From positions 58,714,001 to 58,778,000 of the forward strand of contig JBNRSN020000016.1 in assembly GCA_051313645.2 (NCBI GenBank): a stretch of 64,000 nt of DNA, given 5' to 3'. Position numbers and translations under genes: made by a program. Source of the stretch: Centroscyllium fabricii (Eukaryota). The notes under the pieces are model-generated. The model was not told the DNA's origin and searched no databases. It saw only the letters and a program-made list of their open reading frames with translations. Positions 2,323 to 61,799 of the stretch are shown here, piece by piece; position 1 is the stretch's first letter; the number at the start of each line of letters is the position of its first letter.

Positions 2323-3491
2323 ACAAACAGGTTTCTGACCCGCTCACTCAAGGGCCTGGGAGGCTGACACAATTTTGCCTCAAGTGGCCAATTAAATCCC
2401 CACCTGTCAGAGCCGTTTTGAATACACACCTTACAGTCAGGAAGCGTGGGGCGTGCTTCCAGTTTGTGAACCACCAGCGGGCTTTTGATTAGACAACACC
2501 AGGTTATAATCCAACAGTTTTATTTTAAATCACAAGCTTTCGGAGCGCTGCTCCTTCCTCAGGTGAAGTGTCGAGATTCATTTAAACATAGCATATATAT
2601 ATATGCTATGTTTAAATGAATCTCGACATTTCACCTGAGGAAGAAGCAGCGCTCCGAAAGCTTGTGATTTAAAATAAAACTGTTGGACTATAACCTGGTG
2701 TTGTGTGACTTCTTGCATTTGTCCACCCCCGTCCAACACCGGCACCTCCACATCAGGGCTTTTGATTGACAGGCCTGAAGAGTTTCTATGCTGTGATTCA
2801 TAATGCAGTGTCAATAGCTCAGAAACCACAAAGTCTGATTGACAGTTGTGAAGTGGTTGTTTTCTTCCTGTTTTCACAGCATTATGATGTCATAATGCTA
2901 TGTAAACAGATGAAACCACAAATCTAAGAGTGACAGCTTTAACTAGGCTGGCTGTTTGTGGTTTCATTGGAATGTAAACAGAAACTGATCCCCTGGGTGA
3001 TTGACAGCTTGCTTCACAGACACAGCTCGCAGTGCGATGTCTGTGAATGACTGGGACACATCTGCAGGTAAGTGATTTTAAGTTCTTTGGGCATTGACGT
3101 TTGGCACCCTTGGGTGCCAGCTGCACCTCCAGCATGGTGGAGGCTAGCAAGCTGCTGTGTGGCTGCTGTACCCATGCCTTGAAGGTGGCAGTCACCCAGC
3201 CGATTGGGTGCACGTCAGCTTTCAACGGCGGTGTTCCCACCAGGCGGGTTTTAGGTGGGAAGAGGGTGAAAGTTGCAAGGGGCCCTTAAAATGGCATTAC
3301 CAATGCCAATTAAGGGCCCCTAATAAGCTTAACAAGCATCCCCGCCGATGCTGGGTGGGACTGATACGGGACAGTCAGTCCCGCCGGGTGAAACTGACAA
3401 ACGGGCGGGACGGGTCGCGGACCTCGCTTTTGCGATTTTTGTTGCAGTCCCTCCCAAAAACCCGCCCCACGGCCCGATGAAAATTCTGCCC
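2323..3491. mobile_element. Non-autonomous DNA transposon (Harbinger-like MITE), paralogue of 35826-36704, interrupted by a fold-back element
   Basis: Internal blocks shared in reverse orientation with 35826-36704; right end AAAATTCTGCCC. Confidence 0.55.
2491..2755 (+). mobile_element. Fold-back Penelope-like mini-element with hammerhead-like motif
   Basis: Near-perfect palindrome 2493-2704 plus single-copy tail; TSD GGGCTTTTGATT at 2479-2490 and 2756-2767; CTGAGGA..GAAA at 2635-2661. Confidence 0.8.
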
Positions 3492-11208: not shown

Positions 11209-11904
11209 CAGGTTGAGCAGCGTTAATCCGCCACGGGCGGGACCAGGCCCGTGCCGGGAAATGGAAAAAACCGGGAGAAGGAGTTTGGACACTGCGCGTG
11301 CGCGCCATTCAAAATGGCCGCGCGCATGCGCGCAGCATTGCGATTGGCTGGCGCGCGCATGCGCAGATCGGGCCCGGGTCCGCCGTCCCTCTCCATCGCC
11401 TTTGGACAAATGCAAAAAGTCACACACCAGGTTTAAAGTCCAACGTTTTATTTTAAATCACAAGCTTTCGGAGCTCCGAAAGCTTGTGATTTAAAATAAA
11501 ACGTCGGACTTTAAACCTGGTGTTGTGTGACTTTTTGCATTTGTCCACCCCAGTCCAACACCGGCACCTCCGCATTATCGCCTTTGGGGTTGCTGCTGCC
11601 GCCGAGCGGGACTCAGGCTGACAGCTGTTGCCTAGTGACTGTCCGCCTCAGTCACGGGGCTCAGCTGTCGAGAAAATAACGGGCGGCCGTATTGAATTAT
11701 CTGCGCATGCGCTAACCGTCCGGTGACGCATGCGCAGATCATTCAAAACACCCGCAGCTGTTTTGAATGATCTGCGCATGCATCATTCGCTGAAGCCACG
11801 ATGGGGGCTGCCATTTTGCGCATGCGCAGTGCAGTTGGGGCAATTTGTGCCGGCAGACTGAAGCTGCCGGCTATTCGGGACGCGGATTAACGGTGCTCAA
11901 CCTG
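11209..11904. mobile_element. Tigger/pogo-like MITE (TA TSD) carrying a nested fold-back element
   Basis: TA|CAGGTTGAGCA..TTAATCCG ... CGGATTAACGGTGCTCAACCTG|TA; empty paralogue at 59891-60394. Confidence 0.85.
11404..11576 (+). mobile_element. Fold-back Penelope-like mini-element
   Basis: Palindrome centred on GGAGCTCC (~11470-11477) plus the shared tail; TSD ATCGCCTTTGG at 11395-11405 and 11577-11587. Confidence 0.8.
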
Positions 11905-11961
11905 TAATACATTTACAGATCTGATTACAGCTGGGGCAGAGAAAAACCGTCCTTTAATTAA

Positions 11962-40900: not shown

Positions 40901-43900
40901 AGCGAGCATAGTGGTGAGCGGGACTTGGTGCGAGCTAGGATACGGGCACCAGAGTTTTGGATGAGCTCTAGTTTATGGAGGGTAGAAGATGGGAGGTCCG
41001 CCAGGGGAAGATTGGAATAGTTGAGTCTATGAACATGGGAACAGGGGTAGGCCATTCAATTAGATCATACTTGATCTGTACCTCAACCTCATTTACCTGC
41101 CTTTGACCAATATCCCTTGACACCCTTGCCCAACAAAAATCTATCTCTCTCAGTCTTCAAAGTGTCAATTCACCCAGTATTCACAGCCTTTTGGGGCAGA
41201 GAATTCCAGATTTCTACTACTCTCTTTGTGAAGAAGTGCATCCTGATTTCACCCTTGAATGGCCTGGCTCTAATTTTAAGGTTGTTCTTTTAGTCTGGAT
41301 TTCTCCACCAAAGAAAATAGATTCTCTTCATCTACCCTATCGAAATGACAGATTATATTTATTTTTAGATTCTGTCTTTATCCGCCATTGGGGGGGGAAA
41401 TATTTTTCCAGATAAGTCGAATTGCTTGTAGATTTGGCATGATGCATCGGCATGTAATACTTATGATGAAAATTCTTAAGTATGTTGAGTATTCCTTAAG
41501 AATTGGAGTGATTTACTCCTCCTCACACCCCCCCCCCCCCCTCAAACCATACTCTTAAAAAGCAGATGATGTATGTTATGGTTCTGGCCAGCTTTTCATG
41601 AATGTTAATACAATTTCAGTAATTTAAAAATTATGTTATAGATTTTTTTTTTCTAATTGACATTGGGCCAGAAATTCGGGTGCCTGGGAGTAGTTGCACC
41701 CGCACGGAGGGGTGCCAATATCGCACGGGGCATGCCCATGGATCGGAGCTTTCCGATGCTGAGGGAGAAGAGGCCTCAGCATGGAACGCACAAAAGAATT
41801 GCACCCAAAAATCCCGATGTTTTGGGTGTGATCCTGTGCGTGAATCTGTGGGCAACTGGGCCTAGGGCTGCACGAGAAAATATGAGTCGTAACCTGTGCG
41901 TTGGTGAGAGCAGTGCGTTCCTAAACACAGGTAATGGACTTTTTTACCTTTAATTTTAAGTTTTTAAAGTTTTTTGGAGTAATGTGGCCAGATTGCTATC
42001 ATTAAATTTTGCTGTTAAAGTTGTTTTTTTTTTAATTAAAAATCCAAATTTTAATTGCTATACCTATTCCAAATCGCTTATTTTTAAATTTAAAGTTCAG
42101 AAATTTTTAACTCTTTCCTTAATTTAAAAAACTAAGAGAAAAAATCTCTAAGACTTACCGACATTGAAAAGCTGCTCTGGCCGCGGTGCTCACTGCCGAG
42201 TCTGTGGGTGCAGCAGTGGGCGTGGTCCTAATAATGGCCTCACGTCCCTGGGGCGTTTTTAATTTAAATTAGGGATCTGTGGGCGGGGCATCACTGCTAC
42301 GCACGCACGACGGCAAGCCATATACTGCGCTCCTAGCGTGGCTGGACTGCCACGCAGCGCAGGAACGGGGCGGAGCCAACAGGAAGGTCTGGACGTAAAA
42401 AAAAGTGAGATGATGGTGCGATGCTATAGGTCCCTGCACCCGCACAAACCGGCACACTGGAATTTCTGGCACAATGTTTTATACATCCTGCACAGTTAAT
42501 TTTATCAGGCTTTTAGCAAACATAAATAATTTCCTGTCACTTTTAATCTTCTTCTCTTCTCTTCCAACCCCTACCTCAGGCATGCTGGGGACTGTGTGTA
42601 ATCTTTGTTTATACAACCTAGGGCAGATTCTCCAAACAAAAGTATAATACTGTGGATGCTGGAAATCTGAAATAAAAACAGAAAATGCTGGAAACACTCA
42701 GCAGGTCAGGCAGCTTCATGGAGAGAAAAACCGAGTTAACGTTTCTCCAATTGTTTTAATGTGCAAGAAGCAGGCACCTTATGAGGAAAAGTACCAGGCT
42801 TCCTGAGAAAGAAGAATTTAAGCAATTCCCTCCTCCCAGGGTCACTGGAATGAGTTTATACACATTGCCAAAATGGATCGGCTATTGCCGACGCCTCTTC
42901 TACAGTTCGAGACAAAGTTCAAGTATACATGGATAATGCTGCATGAACTGTCAGACTATTGCAGCAACTGGCTGTGCACCTTTGATGCTGGCACAGACAA
43001 CAATTCCCTGCTGCACCGATTTTACTGTCCAGTTGTGTAGGGTTATTTCAAAAAGTGTGTTCAAAAATTGTAAAACTTAAGAGGTTTAGTATATTGGTTA
43101 ACTGCTATCTGAATAATTTGAGAAATCCTTTTAGCGTTTTGTACCAGATTTAGTGTGTAGGTAGAGCTAATCATTGAGATTTTATTTTAAAAAATTAGGA
43201 TGTGTCCAAAAATTAAACATTAAACATTATTTGGTTTATAGTTCATCAATTCGAGAAGTGAATAGATTTCATTATTTAGTGAAAGGACATATCTAATGAT
43301 TATTTGGACCATTTATTAAAATAGTAACATTTTAAGCTTCCTTAATTATTATACAGGTTGAGCACCGTTAATCCGGCACGGGCGGGACCAGGCCCGTGCC
43401 GGGAAATGGAAAAAACCGGGAGAACGAGTTTGGACACTGCGCATGCGCACCAGTCAAAATGGCAGCGCGCATGCGCGCAACATTGCTATTGGCTGTCGCG
43501 CGCATGCGCAGATCGTCCAATATTGGCCGCCGCGAAGTTTTTTGATGGGCTCAGGCTTTTGTGGCTGTCGGGCAGCAGTGAAAGGCCGGTCTTGCGGGGG
43601 GAGGCAGGAGGGTGGCGCGGGTCGGGGAAGGAGGGTGGCGCGGCGCGGCGGGGGAAGGAGGAAGGCGCGGGTCCGGGGGGGGGAAAGGATTGTGGCGCGG
43701 GTCCGGGGGGGGGGTGTGGAAAGGAGGGTGGCGCGGGTCGGCGGGGGGGCAATTTATCCAATCCCGTTTTGCTTTCAATTGTAAGAGGTCACACGGCGCC
43801 AGGCTGTGGTTCAACGGTTTTAGTTGGGGTCACGGGCTTTCGGAGCGCCGCTTCCCCGTCAGGTGATGGGGGAGCGGCGCTCCGAAGGCTCGTGATTTCG

Positions 43901-46900
43901 AGTGGGACTTTTGCACTACAGCCTGGTGCTGTGTGGCTTCTTACAATTGTCCATCCCAGTCCAACACCAGCACCTCCACATCATGGCTTCAATTAGTTAT
44001 CGATAAAATAACCTTGAATTATCTGCGCATGCGCTAACCTTCCGGCGACGCATGCGCAGATCATTCAAAACACCCGCAGCTGTTTTGAATGATCTGCGCA
44101 TGCGCTCGGCGCATGCGCAGATCATTCGTTGAAGCCACGATGGCGGCTGCCATTTTGCGCATGCGCAGTGCAGTCGGGGCAATTTGTGCCGGCAGACTGA
44201 AGCTGCCGGCTATTCGGTTACCGGATTAACGGTGCTCAACCTGTACTGCCTTTTTAATTGCTTTTTAGATTAAGCCTGCAAAATCTTCAAACTATTTTAG
44301 TACTTTTACTGGTGACATCGTGCATCATTTCAAAAATAATTATTCTTGTCAAGTTCAAGAGAACTATATTGGACATTTATCATAAAATTTAAATGGATGG
44401 TTGTGTTGCATTGGATTTTGGTGTCTTGTTCCCTTATCGTACAGTTAATTTGGCAATTGGATTTTAGTGTGCTGTTTGTCAATTGTTTTTTGATATAAAA
44501 ATGCTATTCTGTATTGATAAGCACCTTTTGAGGTAAATACAAAAATATTAGCCAAGAGAGTAACTTCTATATCAAAAGTACTCCATTAATTGATTCCGTT
44601 TTAAAAGCCAAAGATTAAATAAATGCTCTTGGTAGGTTGAATGAGCATGCTATATATTGTGAGCATGGTACAGGTTGAGCACCAGTAATCCGTGACCCGA
44701 AACGCCGGCAACTTCACTCTTCCGGAACAAATTGCCCCGACTGCACTGCGCATGCGCAAAATGGCAGCCGCGATCGCGGCTTCGGCGAATGATCTGCGCA
44801 TGCGCCGCCGGACGGCGAGCGCATGCGCAGATCATTCAAAACGGCCGCTGGACGAGCCGGGCCTTCCGTGGCGTCGGGGCGTGGCGGCTCGCGCCGCGTT
44901 TTGAATGTGCGAGTCCCGAGTGCCCGCCATGGTGAAGCGCGCGGTTCCCCGGAGCAGCCTGCTGGCCGTCATCAGGAGGCACAAACCGCAGCTGAGACTC
45001 CGCAAGGACGTTCAGCGGCCATTTCCAATGTTGTGCGCATGCGCGCAGCCATTTTGAATGGTGTGCGTATGCGCACTGACCGACTTCATTCTGCCGGTTT
45101 GTTCACTTTCCCGGCACGGGCCTGGTCCCGCCTGTGTCGGATTTCCGGTGCTCAACCTGTACAACATTGTATATATATTTGAGACTATTTAGATCTAGTT
45201 CAGCAGAGGTCTACTGACTTTACTCCTGTGATAAACACTGGTTGATTAGCTGGAGAATTGGCGTATCCTGAGAAATGAAACTTGAATGAATTGGAATTTG
45301 CTTATATTTCCTGGTATCTTCATCTTGCATGGCGATTGATATCATTAGGAGCAATATCCATTTTACATTCTTTTTGTACAATTATTAAGGTATTACAAAA
45401 AAGTTTGAACATTTAACTCAAATGCACCACAATAATAAAGTTGTGTTGGTTTGAAATCTGTTTATAATTGCATTGTGCTGCAGATTGTTTTATAATTTTT
45501 TTTATTTTTAGATGATTTTCAACGGCTATTAAATGATGGTGTCTTAAGTGCAAGCCCACAATGTCTGCAAATTTTGGTCACTTGGGCTCATCATCATGGC
45601 AGCAACTGCGGGTCCCCACCAAACGTACAGAGCGTTTTATCTGCAGAGTATCGCGGAGTAGTCGGAGCTGTATGGGGGTGTCCGGAGGGACACAGTTACA
45701 TCCTGGACGTGCATTCAAATCACAACATTGTAATGAACGAGGGACCGTGCCCACGCAAAGAAAATAATGACTTAAAGAAAGAGGAAATTGTGGGGAGCAC
45801 ATTATCCCTATCACCTCAGAATGGAACAGGTACTGAAAATGGTGAGGGTGGTTCTGGCTCTAAGCTTCAATCCGGCCCAGTGTCACTTTGGTCATCCGAC
45901 TCTCAGCCCTGTACATACAGTGGAGTTGCTTCACAGCCAGCAGATGTTCACAGCTCAGAATGTCCGTTGAGCAAGGATATGATTTTGCGCTCAGATCCTG
46001 ATGGTACTGAATGCTCTTGGGAAAAAGTTCAGTTACAGGATGCCACTCAAGTATTAAATGCAAAAGGTAAGAAATTTGTTTTAATGCTAAATTATGAGGT
46101 GTAACTTTTGTATTACACAATTGAAATGTTTGTAATCTTGGTTATCATAGAGTGGTTACAGCGCAGAAGGAGACCATTCAGCCCATGCCGGCTCTCTGCA
46201 AGAGCACTTCAGCTAGTCCCACTCCCCTACCCTTTCCCTGTAGCCCTGAATTTTTTTTCCTTCAGGTACTTATCTATTTTTTTTTTGAAAGCCACGATTG
46301 AATCTGCCTCCACCAGCCTCTCCGGCCGTGCATTCCAGATCCTAACCACTCGCTGCGTAAAATGTTTTTCCTCCTGTCGCCTTTGGATCTTCTGCCAATC
46401 ACCTTCAATCTCTCTATTTACTGTCCAGACCTTTCATGATTTTGAACACCTCTATCAAAACTCCTCTCAACCTTCTCTGCTCCAAGGAGAACAACCCCAG
46501 CTTCTCCATGCAGGCTCTGACCATCATTTTCCAATCCTCTCTGGCTACAGGTGTTGTGCTGTGCTAATGTGGTACCGTTATTTTAAAAAGGAGAAAGGGA
46601 TAAACTGAGTGATTACAGACTCAGCCTAACCTTGGTGGTGGGAAAATTATTGGAAAAAATTCTGAGGGACAGGGTGGATCTTCATTTAGAAAGACACGGA
46701 TTACTTAAGGACAGTCAGCGTGGATTTGTTAAGGGGAGGTCGTATCTGACTAACTTGATTGAATTTTTTGAGGAGGTAACCAGGAGGGTCGATGAGGGTT
46801 GTGCATTTGATGTAGTGTATATGGATTTTAGCAAGGCTTTTTCTGGGGTCCCACATGGCAGACTGGTCATGGAAGTAAAAGCCCGTGGGATACAAGGCAA

Positions 46901-52205: not shown

Positions 52206-55200
52206 GGGGGGGTGTCTGTTTACAGATTGTGATGTGGAGGTGCCGGTGTTGGACAGGGGTGGACAAATGTAAGAAGTCACACAACACCAGGTTATAGTCC
52301 AACAGTTTTATTTGAAATCACAAGCTTTCGGAGCGCTGCTCCTTCCTCAGGTGTGAGAGAAATTAATTTAAACACAGCATATATAGCAATCTAATCTCTC
52401 CAACATCACACTTCAGCAGACACAGAGCAGACAAAGGTGTTTTAACGTATTTTAACATAGATGACGTAGAGTCATCCAGACTCGAGCCATCTTTGTCTTG
52501 TTCGCTGCGGCGTTCTCCAGTAAGGAAAATCCCCTTTTAAAAAAAAAAAAATCAGTGTGTTTTTACACAGAGACAAGACTGCAACATTTGACCCTTTGTG
52601 ACTGTACCTCATTGATCTCATGATCTGATGAATGTTAAAATATGTTAAAACACCTTTGTCTGCTCTGTGTCTGCTGAAGTGTGATGTTGGAGAGATTAGA
52701 TTGCTATATATGCTGTGTTTAAATTAACTTCTCTCACACCTGAGGAAGGAGCAGCGCTCCGAAAGCTTGTGATTTCAAATAAAACTGTTGGACTATAACC
52801 TGGTGTTGTGTGACTTCTTGCATTTGTTTACAGATTGATCTGGCTATCTTTTATTTATTTCAGCAGTCTGTATTGAGTATTTGCTATAGTTTCAAAAACT
52901 GGGATAATCATTCATTCTATTTCAAACTACTAATTTGGTGCGATACAGCAATACCTTTTTGTGTGGGGAATGTAAGGAAATGTGGCAGTCAATTTGTGCA
53001 CAGTAAGGTCCTACAAACAGCAATGAGATATATGACCAGATACTCTGTTTTAGTGATATTGATTGAGGGATAAATGTTGGCCAGGGCACTGGGAGAATTC
53101 TTGCTGATGGGTTTCTTGAGGATGTGTTAATGAAACTGATGGATTGTCTTCAGCCCTGTTTATACAGTTGGATTGGTCTTAATATACTGTAACAGGCACC
53201 GTGAGCAAGGCCATTGGTTTGTGGTTTTCACGGGAAAATAGAGAGGATCATGGAATCGCATCCCCAAAATACCAATAAACATCTCCATTCAATAAAAATG
53301 GAATTTGACTTCTTCAGCATAAACCAGAGTCCCAGCCACAAGAGTTGTGAGATTCGGAGCAACTGATCTGTATGTGGAACTGTTTTTTATCAGCCTTGGC
53401 TCAGTAATGGCACTCTTACCACGAGTCAGAAGATCGAGGATTCTAGCTCCACTCCAGAGACTCGAACACATCATCTAAAGTAACACCTCAGTCCAGCCCA
53501 GCGGGGCTGCGGCACTGCCCAGCGGGGCTGCGGCACTGCCCAGCGGGGCTGCGGCACTGCCCAGCGGGGCTGCGGCACTGCCCAGCGGGGCTGCGGCACT
53601 GCCCAGGTGCTGTTTTTTGGATGAGGTGTTATTCTTGCTATGTAGTAGGGAGGAGAAATGGCACAATCCAGAGAGACTTGGTTTTAGGAAGGGATCTATT
53701 ATCATCTTGGGGAGTACCAGGAACATAGGTACTTGTAAAATTGGGGTTGTAGGGTCTACAATACAGGATAAGATTAGGGAAGCCTAATTAGGGACAGTCG
53801 ATACGGATTTATAAAGAGCAGGGTGTGCTAGACTAATTTTTTTTTGTGGTTAAGATTACATTTGAAAAAGGCAGCTTATGGCAACCCAGAACGTTCAATG
53901 ACTGTGACCCAGGAGTGCAAATGCACAGATTTTAAGGGGGAGAAATTCGGATGCTTGTGCCTCCCGTTAGCGTCCTAAGAGGGCTGCTAATGGGGCGCAA
54001 GGCACTTAGCGCCTCCCGCGATATTCAGCGGGGCGCTGGCGGGGGCGGTAACCAGTAGCGCCCCGTGGTGCTGCGCTACCGCCGATGACGTCATTGCAAT
54101 GCGCAGTGCCCCGGCCCGGACTTCAGTCGCGCCCACTGCTGTACCGCCTGACGCTGTCACCGACAGGGTCAGGGAGGTGTACTTGCAGCATGGAGAGGGA
54201 TATTTAAAGGCAGAGGTGCCGGGCGGCCATTTCCCTTGCTGGCCGACTGCCAGCACCTGCCCCCTCTGCCGTCCCCGGCCTTCCCCGATGCCTCCCCGCG
54301 GAGTGCTGGCTGTGCTCCGTGAGCCCGGCACTTCCCTTGAGTGCCGAGCTCCTTTGGCGTCATTGCGATCCCCAGCAGTCCAACGGGGCTCCGGCCCGAG
54401 CCGCGCTAGGCCACTCCCCTTTAATTAGGGGAGGAAGGCCTGCAGTACCGTGACGCGGCACTCTGCAGAGCGTGGCGCAGCGCCCGAAATTGAGTGGTAG
54501 CACCTAAAGAAGGAGGTGGAGCGCCTGCAGTAGCACCCCACCTCCTACTTGGGGCGCTAAAACCCAATTTCAGGAGGAGCGGCGCCAACGTTTTCTGGGT
54601 GCTAAAAGTAGCGCCCCGCCGAGGGTAGCTACCGAACCTTTCCCCCAAAGTTTTTAAGTAGGAGGAGAAATTAAAAGTAAATGGAGAGGTGACAAATTTT
54701 GGAGAGGGTATTGATGCACTATCAATCACTAAGAAAGACTGGAAGTTAAGAGAGTAACAAACAGGCTTTTATTAGCTTAAAAAACGAGAGCATGCCTCTA
54801 GTGGTCGCCCGGTCCTGAATGCCAGGGAGTTGGAGAGCAGCCACCTTTATACCAGGGCATATGGGTGGAGCCAGGGGCGGGGCCAGCAGAGGCATGCACA
54901 GGCAGGTTATGTCAGGCAGGACAAGAGTGAACACAGAACAACAGTGGTTTACCACAGGTATATTGATATGAAATCTGGAATGACCTGTGTAAATGTATTG
55001 AGTATAGTTAATTGGAAGCTTCTCTTTTTGGGTGCTAGTGAAACATTTGCAACATGTTGAACTTTTAGAAATGTTATTGCTGAACTAATAGTATCCTCTG
55101 TAAAGATGGGCTTCCTTTTAGAAGTGAAGAGATCCACTCAAAGGTATAAAGCTACATTGGTAGAATATGCAGAAATGTAACCAGATGTTTGATGAATTAA

Positions 55201-59612: not shown

Positions 59613-59890
59613 GTAAAATTATGCTCAAGACTAATTGGTCAAGTGCAGATTTTAAAACTTCAGGCTTTTTGAGTGTCAGCTTGGCTCACTTCGTAGCTCA
59701 CTTGCCTCTCAATCAAAGGTTTCAAGCCCCACAGCAGGATCTGAACACATAATCTAGACTCCTCGAAGGGCTGCAAATGGTCGCCATTAGCAGAAACCCA
59801 CTGCTCGTTGATTTGGTCAGGGGTGTGGCCTGTCTTGTGGGAGAGGCTGGCTTCCTGCGCGATATTTTTAAAACCAGCATGAAACATCTA

Positions 59891-60394
59891 CAGGTTGTGC
59901 ACCATTAATCCAGGCCCGTGCCGGGAAACAGAAAAAACCGGGAGAACGAGGTTGGACACTGCGCATGCGCACCATTCAAAATGGCCACGCGCATGCGCAC
60001 AACATTGAGATTGGCTGCCGCGCGCATGCACAGATCGGGCCCGGGTCCGCCTTCCCTCTCCATCGCCTTTTGGGTTGCTGCTGCCGCCGAGCCGGACTCA
60101 GGCTGACAGCTGTTGCCTAGTGACTGTCCGCCTCAGTCACAGGGCTCAGCTGTCGAGAAAATAACCAGCGGCCGTATTGAATTATCTGCGCATGCGCTAA
60201 CCGTCCGGCGATGCATGTGCAGATCATTCAAAACACCCGGCAGCTGTTTTGAATGATCTGCGCATGCGCAGATCATTCGCTGAAGCCACGATGGCGGCGG
60301 CCATCTTGCGCATGCGCAGTGCAGTCGGGGCAATTTGTGCCGGCAGACTGAAGCTGCCGGCTATTCGGGACACGGATTTTCGGTGCACAACCTG
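59891..60394. mobile_element. Tigger/pogo-like MITE
   Basis: TA|CAGGTTGTGCACC ... GGTGCACAACCTG|TA. Confidence 0.87.
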
Positions 60395-61799
60395 TATTTG
60401 CGCTTGAAATTCCTCGATCTTTTACGCTGGTTTGGCTGTTGTCGGGCGAATTGCTGGTTTTAGTGGAAGCTCTACCCCAGATAGTCATCAATCACAGATT
60501 CAGAACCATAGTGAGTACATTGTTGGAACTTATTTTATGTGGTTTCTACAATTAAGTGGGTGTGACCACTGATAACACTGTAGAAAGTACTTTAGAGAGT
60601 TGAATTTAAAGAATTCACTATGCTGTTGTATCAGTCAAGCATGCTCCTGCTGAGCCTGATGGATCACAAGAACAAAATCCAAAATGAGAAACCACGCTGT
60701 AGTTAATTGTTCTCCTCCACATTTCATGAGTGTTGTGCTTTCAAAATATAGATTATTCTTCTGGGCCAGGAGAGACAAAATTCAGAGGGGTGCTTATCCT
60801 TGCTGGAAAAAGTCTTCGAAGCAGATCTCAAAATGGGAAAAGTTCAGTTGTTTGGGCCTCCCATTAGCACCTTAAGAGGGTGCAAATGGGGCGTGAAGCA
60901 ACTAGCGCCTGGGTACGGCGATGTTTGCGCCACTTGCGAAATTGACCAGACATTTTGCAGCGGCGCTAAACACTACCGCCACGATCTCCTGCGCCGGCAG
61001 ATGGTGACATCATTTGAGTATGCAGTGCCCCGGACCGGATATTGAGTGGCGCCCCCTGCCTTACCGCCTGCCGCTAGCAACGACAGATTGAGAGGAGCGT
61101 CCTGCAGTCAGAAAGGGACTGGGGGAGCGCTATTTAAAGGTGACTGCTTCCTGCCTTTTTTTGTCGCCGACATTTTTGCGCTACGCATTCTGAGAGAGAC
61201 TTCTGGAGAGATTCAACACTGTGTGAAGGAGTTTTGGGTACTGAGCAGCACTTTGCAGGGCCATTTTGATTTGACCATGTTAGATTCGAATTCGGAGAAA
61301 CTCTAGACGGAGACAGAATTGAATGTAAAGTAAAAGTTTTATTAGAAATGGCCAGATAAAACCTGTGCACAAAGAGAGACCAGGCTCCTCAGACTTTGAC
61401 CTATCCCCTCAAAGAAAATACAGCAGACAAACATAGATATACCTTTTGATAGGCACCGCCCATGGGTTACAAACAGCGTCACTACCGTTACTCCCTTATT
61501 GGTTAGTGTGTTTAGTCGCTCAACATTAGGAGCCGCCCTGAGTTGTTGGATGATGTTTAACATAACATCTGTGTTTTCAGACACTGGGCCTCCATCTTAT
61601 CTTGTGAACAAGGTCATCTCCGACTCTGCACAAAAGTCTGTACTAAGCTTATGGCTTCCCTCCCTCATCCCAAACGCTTCATTACTTTCTTGGGAAAAGC
61701 TTTACTGTGATAAACAATGCTAGCTTCTAAGGTCGAGCAAACATTCCAAAGAGAAGTAAAGGATTTTAAACCAAGGTAGTAAGGGCCTGTTTATCAACC

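What the first reader, a model, noticed from the sequence alone, without database searches (positions are those of the whole stretch)
43777..43983. Genomic fossil of ADAR hyper-editing in a fold-back retro-element
Seen: aligning the left arm with the reverse complement of the right arm gives about 20 mismatches. Nearly all are G.T pairs caused by plus-strand A>G relative to the three sister copies (e.g. CACAACACC>CACGGCGCC, TTTGAAATCACAAG>GTTGGGGTCACGGG, CAAATAAAAC>CGAGTGGGAC). The single-stranded tail (43949-43983) shows no A>G changes. Several further positions are converted to G-C in both arms (GGTTAT>GGCTGT, GCTGC>GCCGC). Established: ADAR deaminates A to I in dsRNA, and reverse transcriptase copies I as G. 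Inference: the hairpin RNA was hyper-edited before reverse transcription. The compensated pairs suggest an earlier editing round copied into the other arm, or hairpin mismatch repair. The edits also destroy the hammerhead core (GAAA>GAAG), which hints at ADAR acting as a host restriction on these elements.
Basis: partly seen in the sequence, partly recalled or inferred. Interest (0 to 1): 0.8.

Follow-up and report, generated by a model that had tools for sequence, protein, structure and literature searches.

The report
RNA-editing fossil multiplied by a transposon
A small hairpin from a jumping gene carries dozens of A-to-G changes that were likely made by the RNA-editing enzyme ADAR before the RNA was copied into DNA; a DNA transposon carries it at over 2,300 places, and many separately changed copies exist, so RNA edits likely enter this animal's inherited DNA repeatedly.

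Summary
Observation confirmed. The hairpin (43777-43948) has 20 mismatches in 84 pairs, 17 of them G·T. Against unedited Penelope ends, 22 of 45 paired A are G, 0 of 9 in the tail and 0 of 81 in the flanking MITE. The copy is not unique: it rides in an 890-bp TA-flanked MITE, with 2,327 exact matches genome-wide.

ADAR followed by reverse transcription is strongly supported by independent cases. Two motif searches found 81 and 95 edited loci, against 92,567 unedited ends. Unselected arms show A>G 375/1042 versus T>C 33/899, with 5'G disfavoured. One retroposed family has 13 of 13 different edit patterns. One edited copy has an unedited parent, with edits in the arms (62/164) but not the loop (1/139). 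SINEs are hyper-edited too.

The founder likely had 8 compensated pairs, 4 each way. An earlier opposite-strand editing round fits best (about 55%); ongoing DNA repair was not seen. Hammerhead-targeted restriction is unsupported. Known in avian retroviruses; no germline-wide record turned up in 10 literature searches.

The parts
43354..44243 (.). Non-autonomous DNA transposon (MITE), 890 bp, carrier of the hairpin
   Evidence: 23-bp terminal inverted repeats, TA on both sides in 30 of 30 copies with different flanks
43354..43376 (+). MITE left terminal inverted repeat (TA at 43352-43353)
44221..44243 (-). MITE right terminal inverted repeat (TA at 44244-44245)
43774..43780 (+). Left copy of a probable 7-bp target-site duplication (TTCAATT); overlaps the first bases of the left arm
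   Evidence: sequence; no empty site found to confirm it
43777..43860 (-). Left arm: Penelope pseudo-LTR end in antisense, tail-less; 12 plus-strand A>G and 3 T>C in non-polymorphic columns
43861..43864 (.). Fold-back junction and loop; the arms overlap at a TGA microhomology
   Evidence: the same junction type is seen in independent copies L044, L047, L131
43865..43948 (+). Right arm: Penelope pseudo-LTR end in sense with a truncated, edited minimal hammerhead; 10 A>G and 3 T>C in non-polymorphic columns
   Evidence: hammerhead layout read from the sequence and compared with PMC4209133 passages
43949..43983 (+). Penelope optional tail, no partner in the hairpin, unedited
   Evidence: 0 of 9 A changed; tail concept in PMC11167929 and PMC3846280
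43988..43994 (+). Right copy of the probable target-site duplication
43796..43929 (.). Compensated G-C pairs: 43804/43921, 43849/43876, 43855/43870, 43856/43869 (left T>C, right A>G); 43796/43929, 43806/43919, 43834/43891 (left A>G, right T>C); 43835/43890 is compensated in most copies but G·T in the window
   Evidence: 43849/43876 lies in a polymorphic column and was read from the sequence

Best explanation
The hairpin is a fold-back end of a Penelope-like retrotransposon whose RNA was likely hyper-edited by ADAR and then reverse transcribed, and a TA-flanked MITE carries it at over 2,300 places. Shown: A>G on one strand in both arms, sparing tail and MITE; near-identical copies in MITEs with different flanks; many independent loci with the same signature. 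Inferred steps: (1) an inverted Penelope end was transcribed as one RNA and folded into an 84-bp duplex; (2) ADAR deaminated about half of its adenosines; (3) reverse transcription fixed inosine as G, either by Penelope inserting the hairpin into a MITE copy or by CR1/SINE machinery retroposing a read-through RNA that held it (about even odds); (4) that one MITE copy multiplied as DNA, freezing the pattern. The 8 compensated pairs most likely (about 55%) record an earlier round on the opposite strand. That round would leave A·C mismatches in the second-round RNA, and ADAR prefers such sites. The editing looks like general dsRNA editing of germline transcripts, not a defence aimed at the ribozyme.
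For: Focal spectrum. Independent loci: 81 sense-arm matches, 78 of them with further A>G among 10 optional sites; 95 antisense-arm matches; 92,567 unedited ends. In 46 fold-backs the unselected left arms have A>G 375/1042, T>C 33/899, G>A 16/604, C>T 17/754; unpartnered tails 6/192. Editing by 5' neighbour: T 74/135, A 195/426, C 137/514, G 80/322; 3' G 187/461. This largely matches the ADAR profile in PMC3091650. The reverse selection gives right arms A>G 95/319 versus T>C 6/364. Retroposed carrier family: hairpin A>G 189/528, T>C 1/518, unique flank 4/1273, spacer 2/556, 13 of 13 patterns distinct, and one copy (L214) unedited. Parent-daughter pair L365/L364: arms 36/93 and 26/71, loop 1/139. 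Edits are confined to self-paired parts in long copies: L119 46/143 versus 0/129, L326 22/88 versus 5/236. A·C preference: T>C lies opposite an edited A in 24/745 pairs versus 6/1046 opposite an unedited A, p 2e-5; the focal founder's 8/24 exceeds that, p 2e-6. Either strand can serve as template: the edited strand of L326 is antisense to the Penelope reading frame.
Against: No RNA-level evidence: the run search gave only contigs, with RNA holders at small share from other organisms. No unedited or empty precursor of this MITE was found, so the order of events is inferred. In the focal copy alone the neighbour preference is weak (5'G 3/9, A 11/16, C 5/12, T 3/6). In the population, 3' T (76/176) is as high as 3' G, whereas PMC3091650 reports T as not preferred downstream. 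Tails are also spared in copies with no partner arm (6/107) and where scored as paired (3/58, noisy alignments), so tail sparing is not pure proof of pairing. 31 of 77 edited loci had no partner arm within 1.2 kb; of 19 such loci re-fetched at 10 kb only 2 showed an edited partner arm. Solo copies edited on the antisense strand and fold-backs edited in one arm only do not follow from a single hairpin RNA. No intermediate of the proposed first round was found. ADAR genes were not looked for in this genome; their presence in vertebrates is recalled.
Confidence: 0.88

Rival explanations
1. One ADAR round only; the compensated pairs come from DNA-level repair or arm-to-arm copying of the cDNA hairpin when the founder integrated. 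This keeps the ADAR core and replaces only the earlier round.
For: Three copies carry the same edits in both arms (L052, L124, L135), so arm copying happens. The three compensated pairs nearest the loop form a patch.
Against: In 90 MITE copies T>C opposite G is 7/1411 versus 9/1935 opposite A, so nothing ongoing. Fourteen single-round retrocopies show T>C 1/518. In the focal hairpin compensated and uncompensated sites alternate within 1-3 bases and run in both directions. By my reading of the sequence only 2 of the 8 changed T's are in TpG, so a TDG/MBD4-type glycosylase (preference recalled) fits poorly.
Confidence: 0.3
2. ADAR deaminated the cDNA strand (and the RNA) in the RNA:DNA hybrid during reverse transcription, so no hairpin RNA was needed.
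For: [quoted passage not shown] It would explain solo antisense-edited copies such as L210, L203 and L212.
Against: Edits stop where the intramolecular partner stops: loops 0/129, 5/236 and 1/139, whereas a hybrid would span them. Unpartnered antisense tails 0/52. The carrier family is edited in the hairpin, not along the whole copied RNA.
Confidence: 0.05
3. ADAR acts as a host restriction on Penelope by destroying the hammerhead core.
For: Core positions are changed in both arms. The terminal part of edited SINEs is less edited (14/223 versus 87/599), which hints that edits in a recognition end may be selected against.
Against: The right-arm ribozyme was truncated at the junction and is buried in a long duplex. 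Hammerhead mutants did not affect insertion in vitro (PMC11167929). 13 of 15 carrier copies are edited, one is unedited and one has lost most of the hairpin, so edited RNA integrates. Ribozyme-free SINEs are edited alike.
Confidence: 0.1
4. Ordinary divergence: a Penelope subfamily variant or random mutation, with no editing.
For: All copies of this MITE share the pattern.
Against: The G's break the pairing between the two arms of one insertion. The motif with one compensated pair on an otherwise unedited background occurs only 4 times against 92,567 normal ends. Background A>G is 15/669. Strand, duplex and neighbour specificity hold in independent loci.
Confidence: 0.02
5. Sequencing or assembly artefact of a hairpin.
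For: Hairpins are hard to sequence (general knowledge).
Against: 2,327 exact matches on both strands. Public-run contigs cover the hairpin with no variant listed. Unedited fold-backs in the same assembly are clean.
Confidence: 0.01

Closest known systems
ADAR-hypermutated avian retroviruses (Rous-associated virus U3; avian leukosis virus inverted repeat, Hajjar and Linial 1995), as summarised in PMC12925331
   Same: A-to-G at nearly half of the adenosines in an inverted repeat, carried through reverse transcription (passage seen; the original paper was not held).
   Different: Those are single retroviral variants. Here the record is germline, in non-LTR elements and read-through retrocopies, at more than a hundred loci, and one copy was multiplied by a DNA transposon.
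APOBEC editing fossils in retrotransposons (PMC2873906, passages)
   Same: Clusters of one substitution type left in genomic copies by a host deaminase during the retroelement cycle.
   Different: APOBEC gives G>A through cDNA. Here the change is A>G, confined to RNA duplexes and shared by both arms on one strand.
Endonuclease-bearing Penelope-like elements with inverted pseudo-LTRs, optional tail and minimal hammerhead (PMC3846280, PMC11167929, PMC4209133)
   Same: Inverted pseudo-LTR ends with or without a 30-40 base tail, minimal hammerhead, RT followed by a GIY-YIG-like domain in a long relative; the probable target duplication ends in ATT, the preferred cut motif of the lizard enzyme.
   Different: The focal piece is a non-coding fold-back, hyper-edited, and now moves as MITE cargo. 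A search for 'editing' found nothing in PMC3846280 and only non-scientific uses in the 2026 retrozyme preprint; the other two papers were not searched for that word.
A-to-I editing of inverted Alu repeats (PMC3091650, passages)
   Same: Duplex dependence, 5' T favoured and 5' G disfavoured, preference for A opposite C.
   Different: That is seen in RNA; here the same signature stands in genomic DNA.
Tc1/mariner-pogo-type MITEs (label recalled, from no call)
   Same: Short terminal inverted repeats, TA duplication, no coding capacity seen, many near-identical copies.
   Different: Carries a retroelement hairpin as frozen cargo; the partner transposase was not looked for.

Membership tests
ADAR hyper-editing signature | A>G far above all other changes on one strand | tested here: met
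   22/45 focal; 375/1042 versus T>C 33/899 in unselected arms
ADAR hyper-editing signature | Confined to double-stranded regions | tested here: met
   loop 1/139 versus arms 62/164; 0/129 versus 46/143; flank 4/1273 versus hairpin 189/528
ADAR hyper-editing signature | 5' G disfavoured, 5' T and A favoured | tested here: met
   5' T 74/135, A 195/426, C 137/514, G 80/322; weak in the focal copy alone
ADAR hyper-editing signature | 3' G favoured, 3' T not | tested here: inconclusive
   3' G 187/461 is above A and C, but 3' T is 76/176
ADAR hyper-editing signature | Each RNA molecule edited differently | tested here: met
   13 of 13 distinct patterns in retrocopies of one transcript
ADAR hyper-editing signature | Preference for A opposite C | tested here: met
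   24 of 30 A opposite a T>C site are G versus 721 of 1761 opposite T; repair could give the same counts
ADAR hyper-editing signature | Inosine or A>G in RNA of unedited loci | not testable with these tools
   no raw RNA reads were offered
Penelope-like element (endonuclease-bearing) | Reading frame with RT followed by GIY-YIG endonuclease upstream of the pseudo-LTR | tested here: met
   in relative L326, not in the focal fragment: RVT_1 E 0.00035, below Pfam cut-off; downstream frame 0.97 to GIY-YIG clusters (no Pfam hit)
Penelope-like element (endonuclease-bearing) | Pseudo-LTR in inverted arrangement with optional 30-40 base tail | tested here: met
   arms end either near column 87 or at column 124 in many copies
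Penelope-like element (endonuclease-bearing) | Minimal hammerhead in the pseudo-LTR | tested here: inconclusive
   core motifs and helix layout read by eye in unedited sisters; Rfam reported no hammerhead in the window at E up to 1; activity untested
MITE (TA-targeting DNA transposon) | Terminal inverted repeats, TA duplication, dispersed near-identical copies | tested here: met
   30 of 30 copies; 2,327 and 2,477 motif matches
MITE (TA-targeting DNA transposon) | Matching autonomous transposase | not tested
   no search made

The most novel reading that the evidence does not exclude
This genome holds a readable fossil record of germline ADAR activity, and the strand of the edits reports which RNA each retro-insertion was copied from. 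Read that way, the focal hairpin passed through ADAR twice on opposite strands. Solo antisense-edited ends, one-arm-edited fold-backs and the antisense-edited long copy L326 then show that Penelope uses antisense RNA as a direct template to build its inverted ends, as proposed in PMC3846280, whose authors left it for future experiments.
Probability: 0.3. Interest if true: 0.85.

Novelty: new variant of a known kind. Interest (0 to 1): 0.7.

Why it matters
RNA editing is usually treated as non-heritable. Here ADAR-type edits stand in the genome at more than a hundred independent Penelope ends and dozens of SINEs, and one edited molecule reached thousands of copies as MITE cargo. That gives a DNA-only readout of ADAR specificity and level in the germline (about 36% of duplex A). 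It also gives a tracer for which RNA strand and structure each retrocopy came from, which bears on the open question of how Penelope inverted ends arise. A simple A>G cluster scan, the mirror of published APOBEC scans, can test how general this is across animals.

Tried and rejected
Empty MITE site: 0 matches. Unedited hairpin in the MITE: none among 90 copies picked by the right flank, 7 of them partial. Source subfamily for a compensated pair: only 4 matches, with different flanks. DNA-level G·T to G-C conversion within the MITE lineage: suspected, rejected. My early inference that Penelope alone re-mobilises hairpins precisely at both ends was dropped. The parent L365 shows that the target duplication can be inherited inside a longer retrocopy. 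Also, 18 of 81 edited ends have a sense SINE/CR1 end within 1,150 bases downstream, versus 1 of 81 in the mirror control and 0 of 30 unedited. Rfam gave only chance microRNA-type hairpin hits below gathering scores and nothing at the focal site. Contigs laid on a single-copy edited locus did not span it (inconclusive). One search used a yardstick contaminated by edited copies and missed five cases; it was redone, where the self-pairing call is too short for L056, L042 and L187. Two Fisher tests had hand-entered denominators (tail 10 instead of 9; a guessed total for compensation) and are not used. Rows dropped: 4 of 81 as duplicates; 3 whole-arm copies more; 8 of 30 as duplicates or already counted. 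One of the 20 regions (L321) was a fold-back picked by mistake. Three look-ups in earlier findings returned nothing. Ten literature searches listed no report of germline ADAR fossils in non-LTR elements; most subscription papers are not covered and supplements were not opened.
Full report
Observation. The stretch 43777-43948 is a fold-back of 84 pairs: 64 Watson-Crick, 17 G·T and 3 other; it folds at -150.8 kcal/mol, z -15.9. I built a per-column yardstick from 48 unedited copies of the same element end. Against it the paired arms show plus-strand A>G at 22 of 45 A, T>C at 6 of 45 T with each one opposite an A>G, and five other changes; the tail shows 0 of 9. The flanking MITE shows A>G 0/36 and 0/45. 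Background A>G in the panel is 15/669.

What the element is. The arms are the pseudo-LTR end of a Penelope-like retrotransposon. A long relative (L326) carries an RT-like frame followed by a GIY-YIG-like frame upstream of the same end (the Pfam RT hit is below cut-off). Copies end either with or without a tail of about 35 bases, as described in PMC3846280 (passages and Discussion read) and explained by two internal RT start sites in PMC11167929 (parts 1-2 of 4 read). The exact unedited 35-base motif occurs 92,567 times. The repeat content looks like that of a cartilaginous fish (recalled impression; not determined). The 7.2-Gb assembly holds some duplicated loci (for example L106/L107 and L162/L163), so counts may be somewhat inflated.

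The copy is a passenger. The hairpin lies in an 890-bp element with 23-bp terminal inverted repeats and TA on both sides in 30 of 30 copies. A 38-base edited motif has 2,327 exact matches and a right-flank motif 2,477. Of 90 copies picked by the flank, 83 hold the whole hairpin and 7 are partial; the edited letters are the commonest at every column, and all 30 viewed carry the edited form. No empty site was found. Contigs of public runs X19 and X20 cover the hairpin with no variant listed, while X23 and X24 cover only the tail region; the first two may be the assembled sample.

Independent events. A motif requiring two A>G, and excluding the MITE form, found 81 loci; 78 carry further A>G among 10 optional sites. 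The mirror search on the antisense arm found 95. By hand comparison 18 loci are on both lists, which suggests a few hundred in all; this is rough, as the second list includes about 17 copies of one duplicated locus. After dropping 4 duplicates, 46 of 77 are fold-backs. Their unselected left arms have A>G 375/1042, T>C 33/899, G>A 16/604 and C>T 17/754, and unpartnered tails 6/192. Editing follows the 5' neighbour in the order T, A, C, G (0.55, 0.46, 0.27, 0.25), as in PMC3091650 (passages); 3' G is high (0.41) but so is 3' T (0.43), which departs from that paper. Selecting on the left arm gives right arms 95/319 versus T>C 6/364 (30 of the 95 fetched, 8 dropped).

Two natural controls place the change in RNA. 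First, 15 dispersed copies of one composite sequence, most ending in a SINE tail, with ragged 5' ends, share one hairpin. One is unedited; in the other 14 the hairpin has A>G 189/528 and T>C 1/518, the unique flank 4/1273, and 13 of 13 edited patterns differ. Second, the junction of edited copy L119 occurs once more in the genome, unedited, on another contig. The two share about 2 kb including flanks; the daughter has A>G 36/93 and 26/71 in the arms and 1/139 in the loop. Other long copies agree. This also argues against editing of cDNA in an RNA:DNA hybrid (possible in vitro, PMC5389660 passages), which would span the loop.

Generality and mobiliser. SINE copies are hyper-edited as well: 46 on the sense and 12 on the antisense strand (27 viewed). 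18 of 81 edited Penelope ends have a sense SINE/CR1 end just downstream, versus 0 of 30 unedited. So editing hits any duplex in retroposed RNA, and the enzyme that copied the focal hairpin may have been Penelope or CR1. The probable target duplication ends in ATT, the cut motif of the lizard Penelope protein, but L365 shows such a duplication can be inherited from a parent locus.

Compensated pairs. Position 43890 is C in 81 of 82 copies, so the founder likely had 8 compensated pairs, 4 in each direction. In 43 other fold-backs T>C stands opposite an edited A in 24/745 pairs and opposite an unedited A in 6/1046; the focal 8/24 is an outlier, and chance T>C is excluded (p about 2e-6). Ongoing DNA conversion was not seen in the MITE lineage (7/1411 versus 9/1935), and single-round retrocopies show almost none. 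A palindrome offers a sense end on both strands, and L326 shows an edited RNA antisense to the reading frame. An earlier round on the other strand would leave A·C mismatches; at the observed rate of 24/30, editing all eight has probability 0.17. I put this at about 55% and one-time DNA repair or arm copying at about 30%. No intermediate was found.

Restriction. Not supported. The sense-arm hammerhead was already cut at the junction, hammerhead mutants still insert in vitro, edited RNAs integrated readily, and ribozyme-free SINEs are edited alike. A cost of editing cannot be excluded from genomic survivors.

Left unexplained. Solo ends edited on the antisense strand (L210 with its own target duplication; L203, L212, L198) and fold-backs edited in one arm only (L195, L202, L188, L197; L114, L141) do not follow from one hairpin RNA. 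They may reflect template jumps to antisense RNA, as proposed in PMC3846280, or loss of one arm. L211 looked one-armed but is edited along its longer paired region (53/135).

Comparison with what is known. ADAR hypermutation carried through reverse transcription is known from avian retroviruses (passage in PMC12925331; original not held), and APOBEC fossils from retrotransposons (PMC2873906 passages). PMC4209133 (passages) describes the minimal hammerheads. The 2026 retrozyme preprint was word-searched only and does not mention ADAR. Ten searches listed no germline-wide ADAR record in non-LTR elements; other papers were seen as listings only, no supplements were opened, and subscription papers are mostly absent. 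Verdict: real, a new variant of a known kind, interest 0.7.

Noticed in passing
window 11209-11906: A sister MITE with its own, unedited Penelope fold-back (about 11401-11575) between short direct repeats; window 59890-60396 looks like the same MITE without it. Penelope ends appear to have entered this MITE family at least twice.
   Followed up: partly
L213-L226, L189 (for example G000:C1044:340891900-340901899): Family of about 15 retrocopies of one read-through transcript ending in a SINE, nearly all ADAR-edited, each differently; source locus not identified.
   Followed up: yes
L364 and L365: Edited retrocopy and its unedited parent sharing about 2 kb; small A>G clusters also in the flanks (7/52 and 9/206).
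   Followed up: yes
L337-L351, L213-L226: In hyper-edited SINEs the last part, next to the tail, is edited less (14/223 versus 87/599 in the carrier family), perhaps protection by, or selection for, the RT recognition end.
   Followed up: partly
L352, L353, L362: SINEs with an inverted 5' part that is A>G edited on the antisense strand, joined to a little-edited sense 3' end.
   Followed up: no
L210, L203, L212, L198; L195, L202, L188, L197: Solo Penelope ends edited on the antisense strand, and fold-backs edited in one arm only; unexplained.
   Followed up: partly
L052, L124, L135: Fold-backs whose two arms carry the same few edits, as if both arms were copied from one edited sense template.
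   Followed up: partly
L197, L199, L201 and about 14 more matches: A second edited arm multiplied with the same edits, next to a tandem repeat; probably duplicated as DNA.
   Followed up: no
L329 2580-4988 (minus strand): An LTR-retrotransposon-like pol region (RT, RNase H, integrase by eye) lying between the two arms of an edited fold-back.
   Followed up: no
L016 near 983 and 1966: A copy of the MITE that has itself inserted at a TA inside a Penelope end.
   Followed up: no
window 2493-2755 and 52230-52827: Unedited Penelope fold-backs with longer arms (106 and 196 bases, 97-98% complementary); the weak Rfam microRNA hits near 2506-2690 and 11401-11549 are such hairpins.
   Followed up: partly
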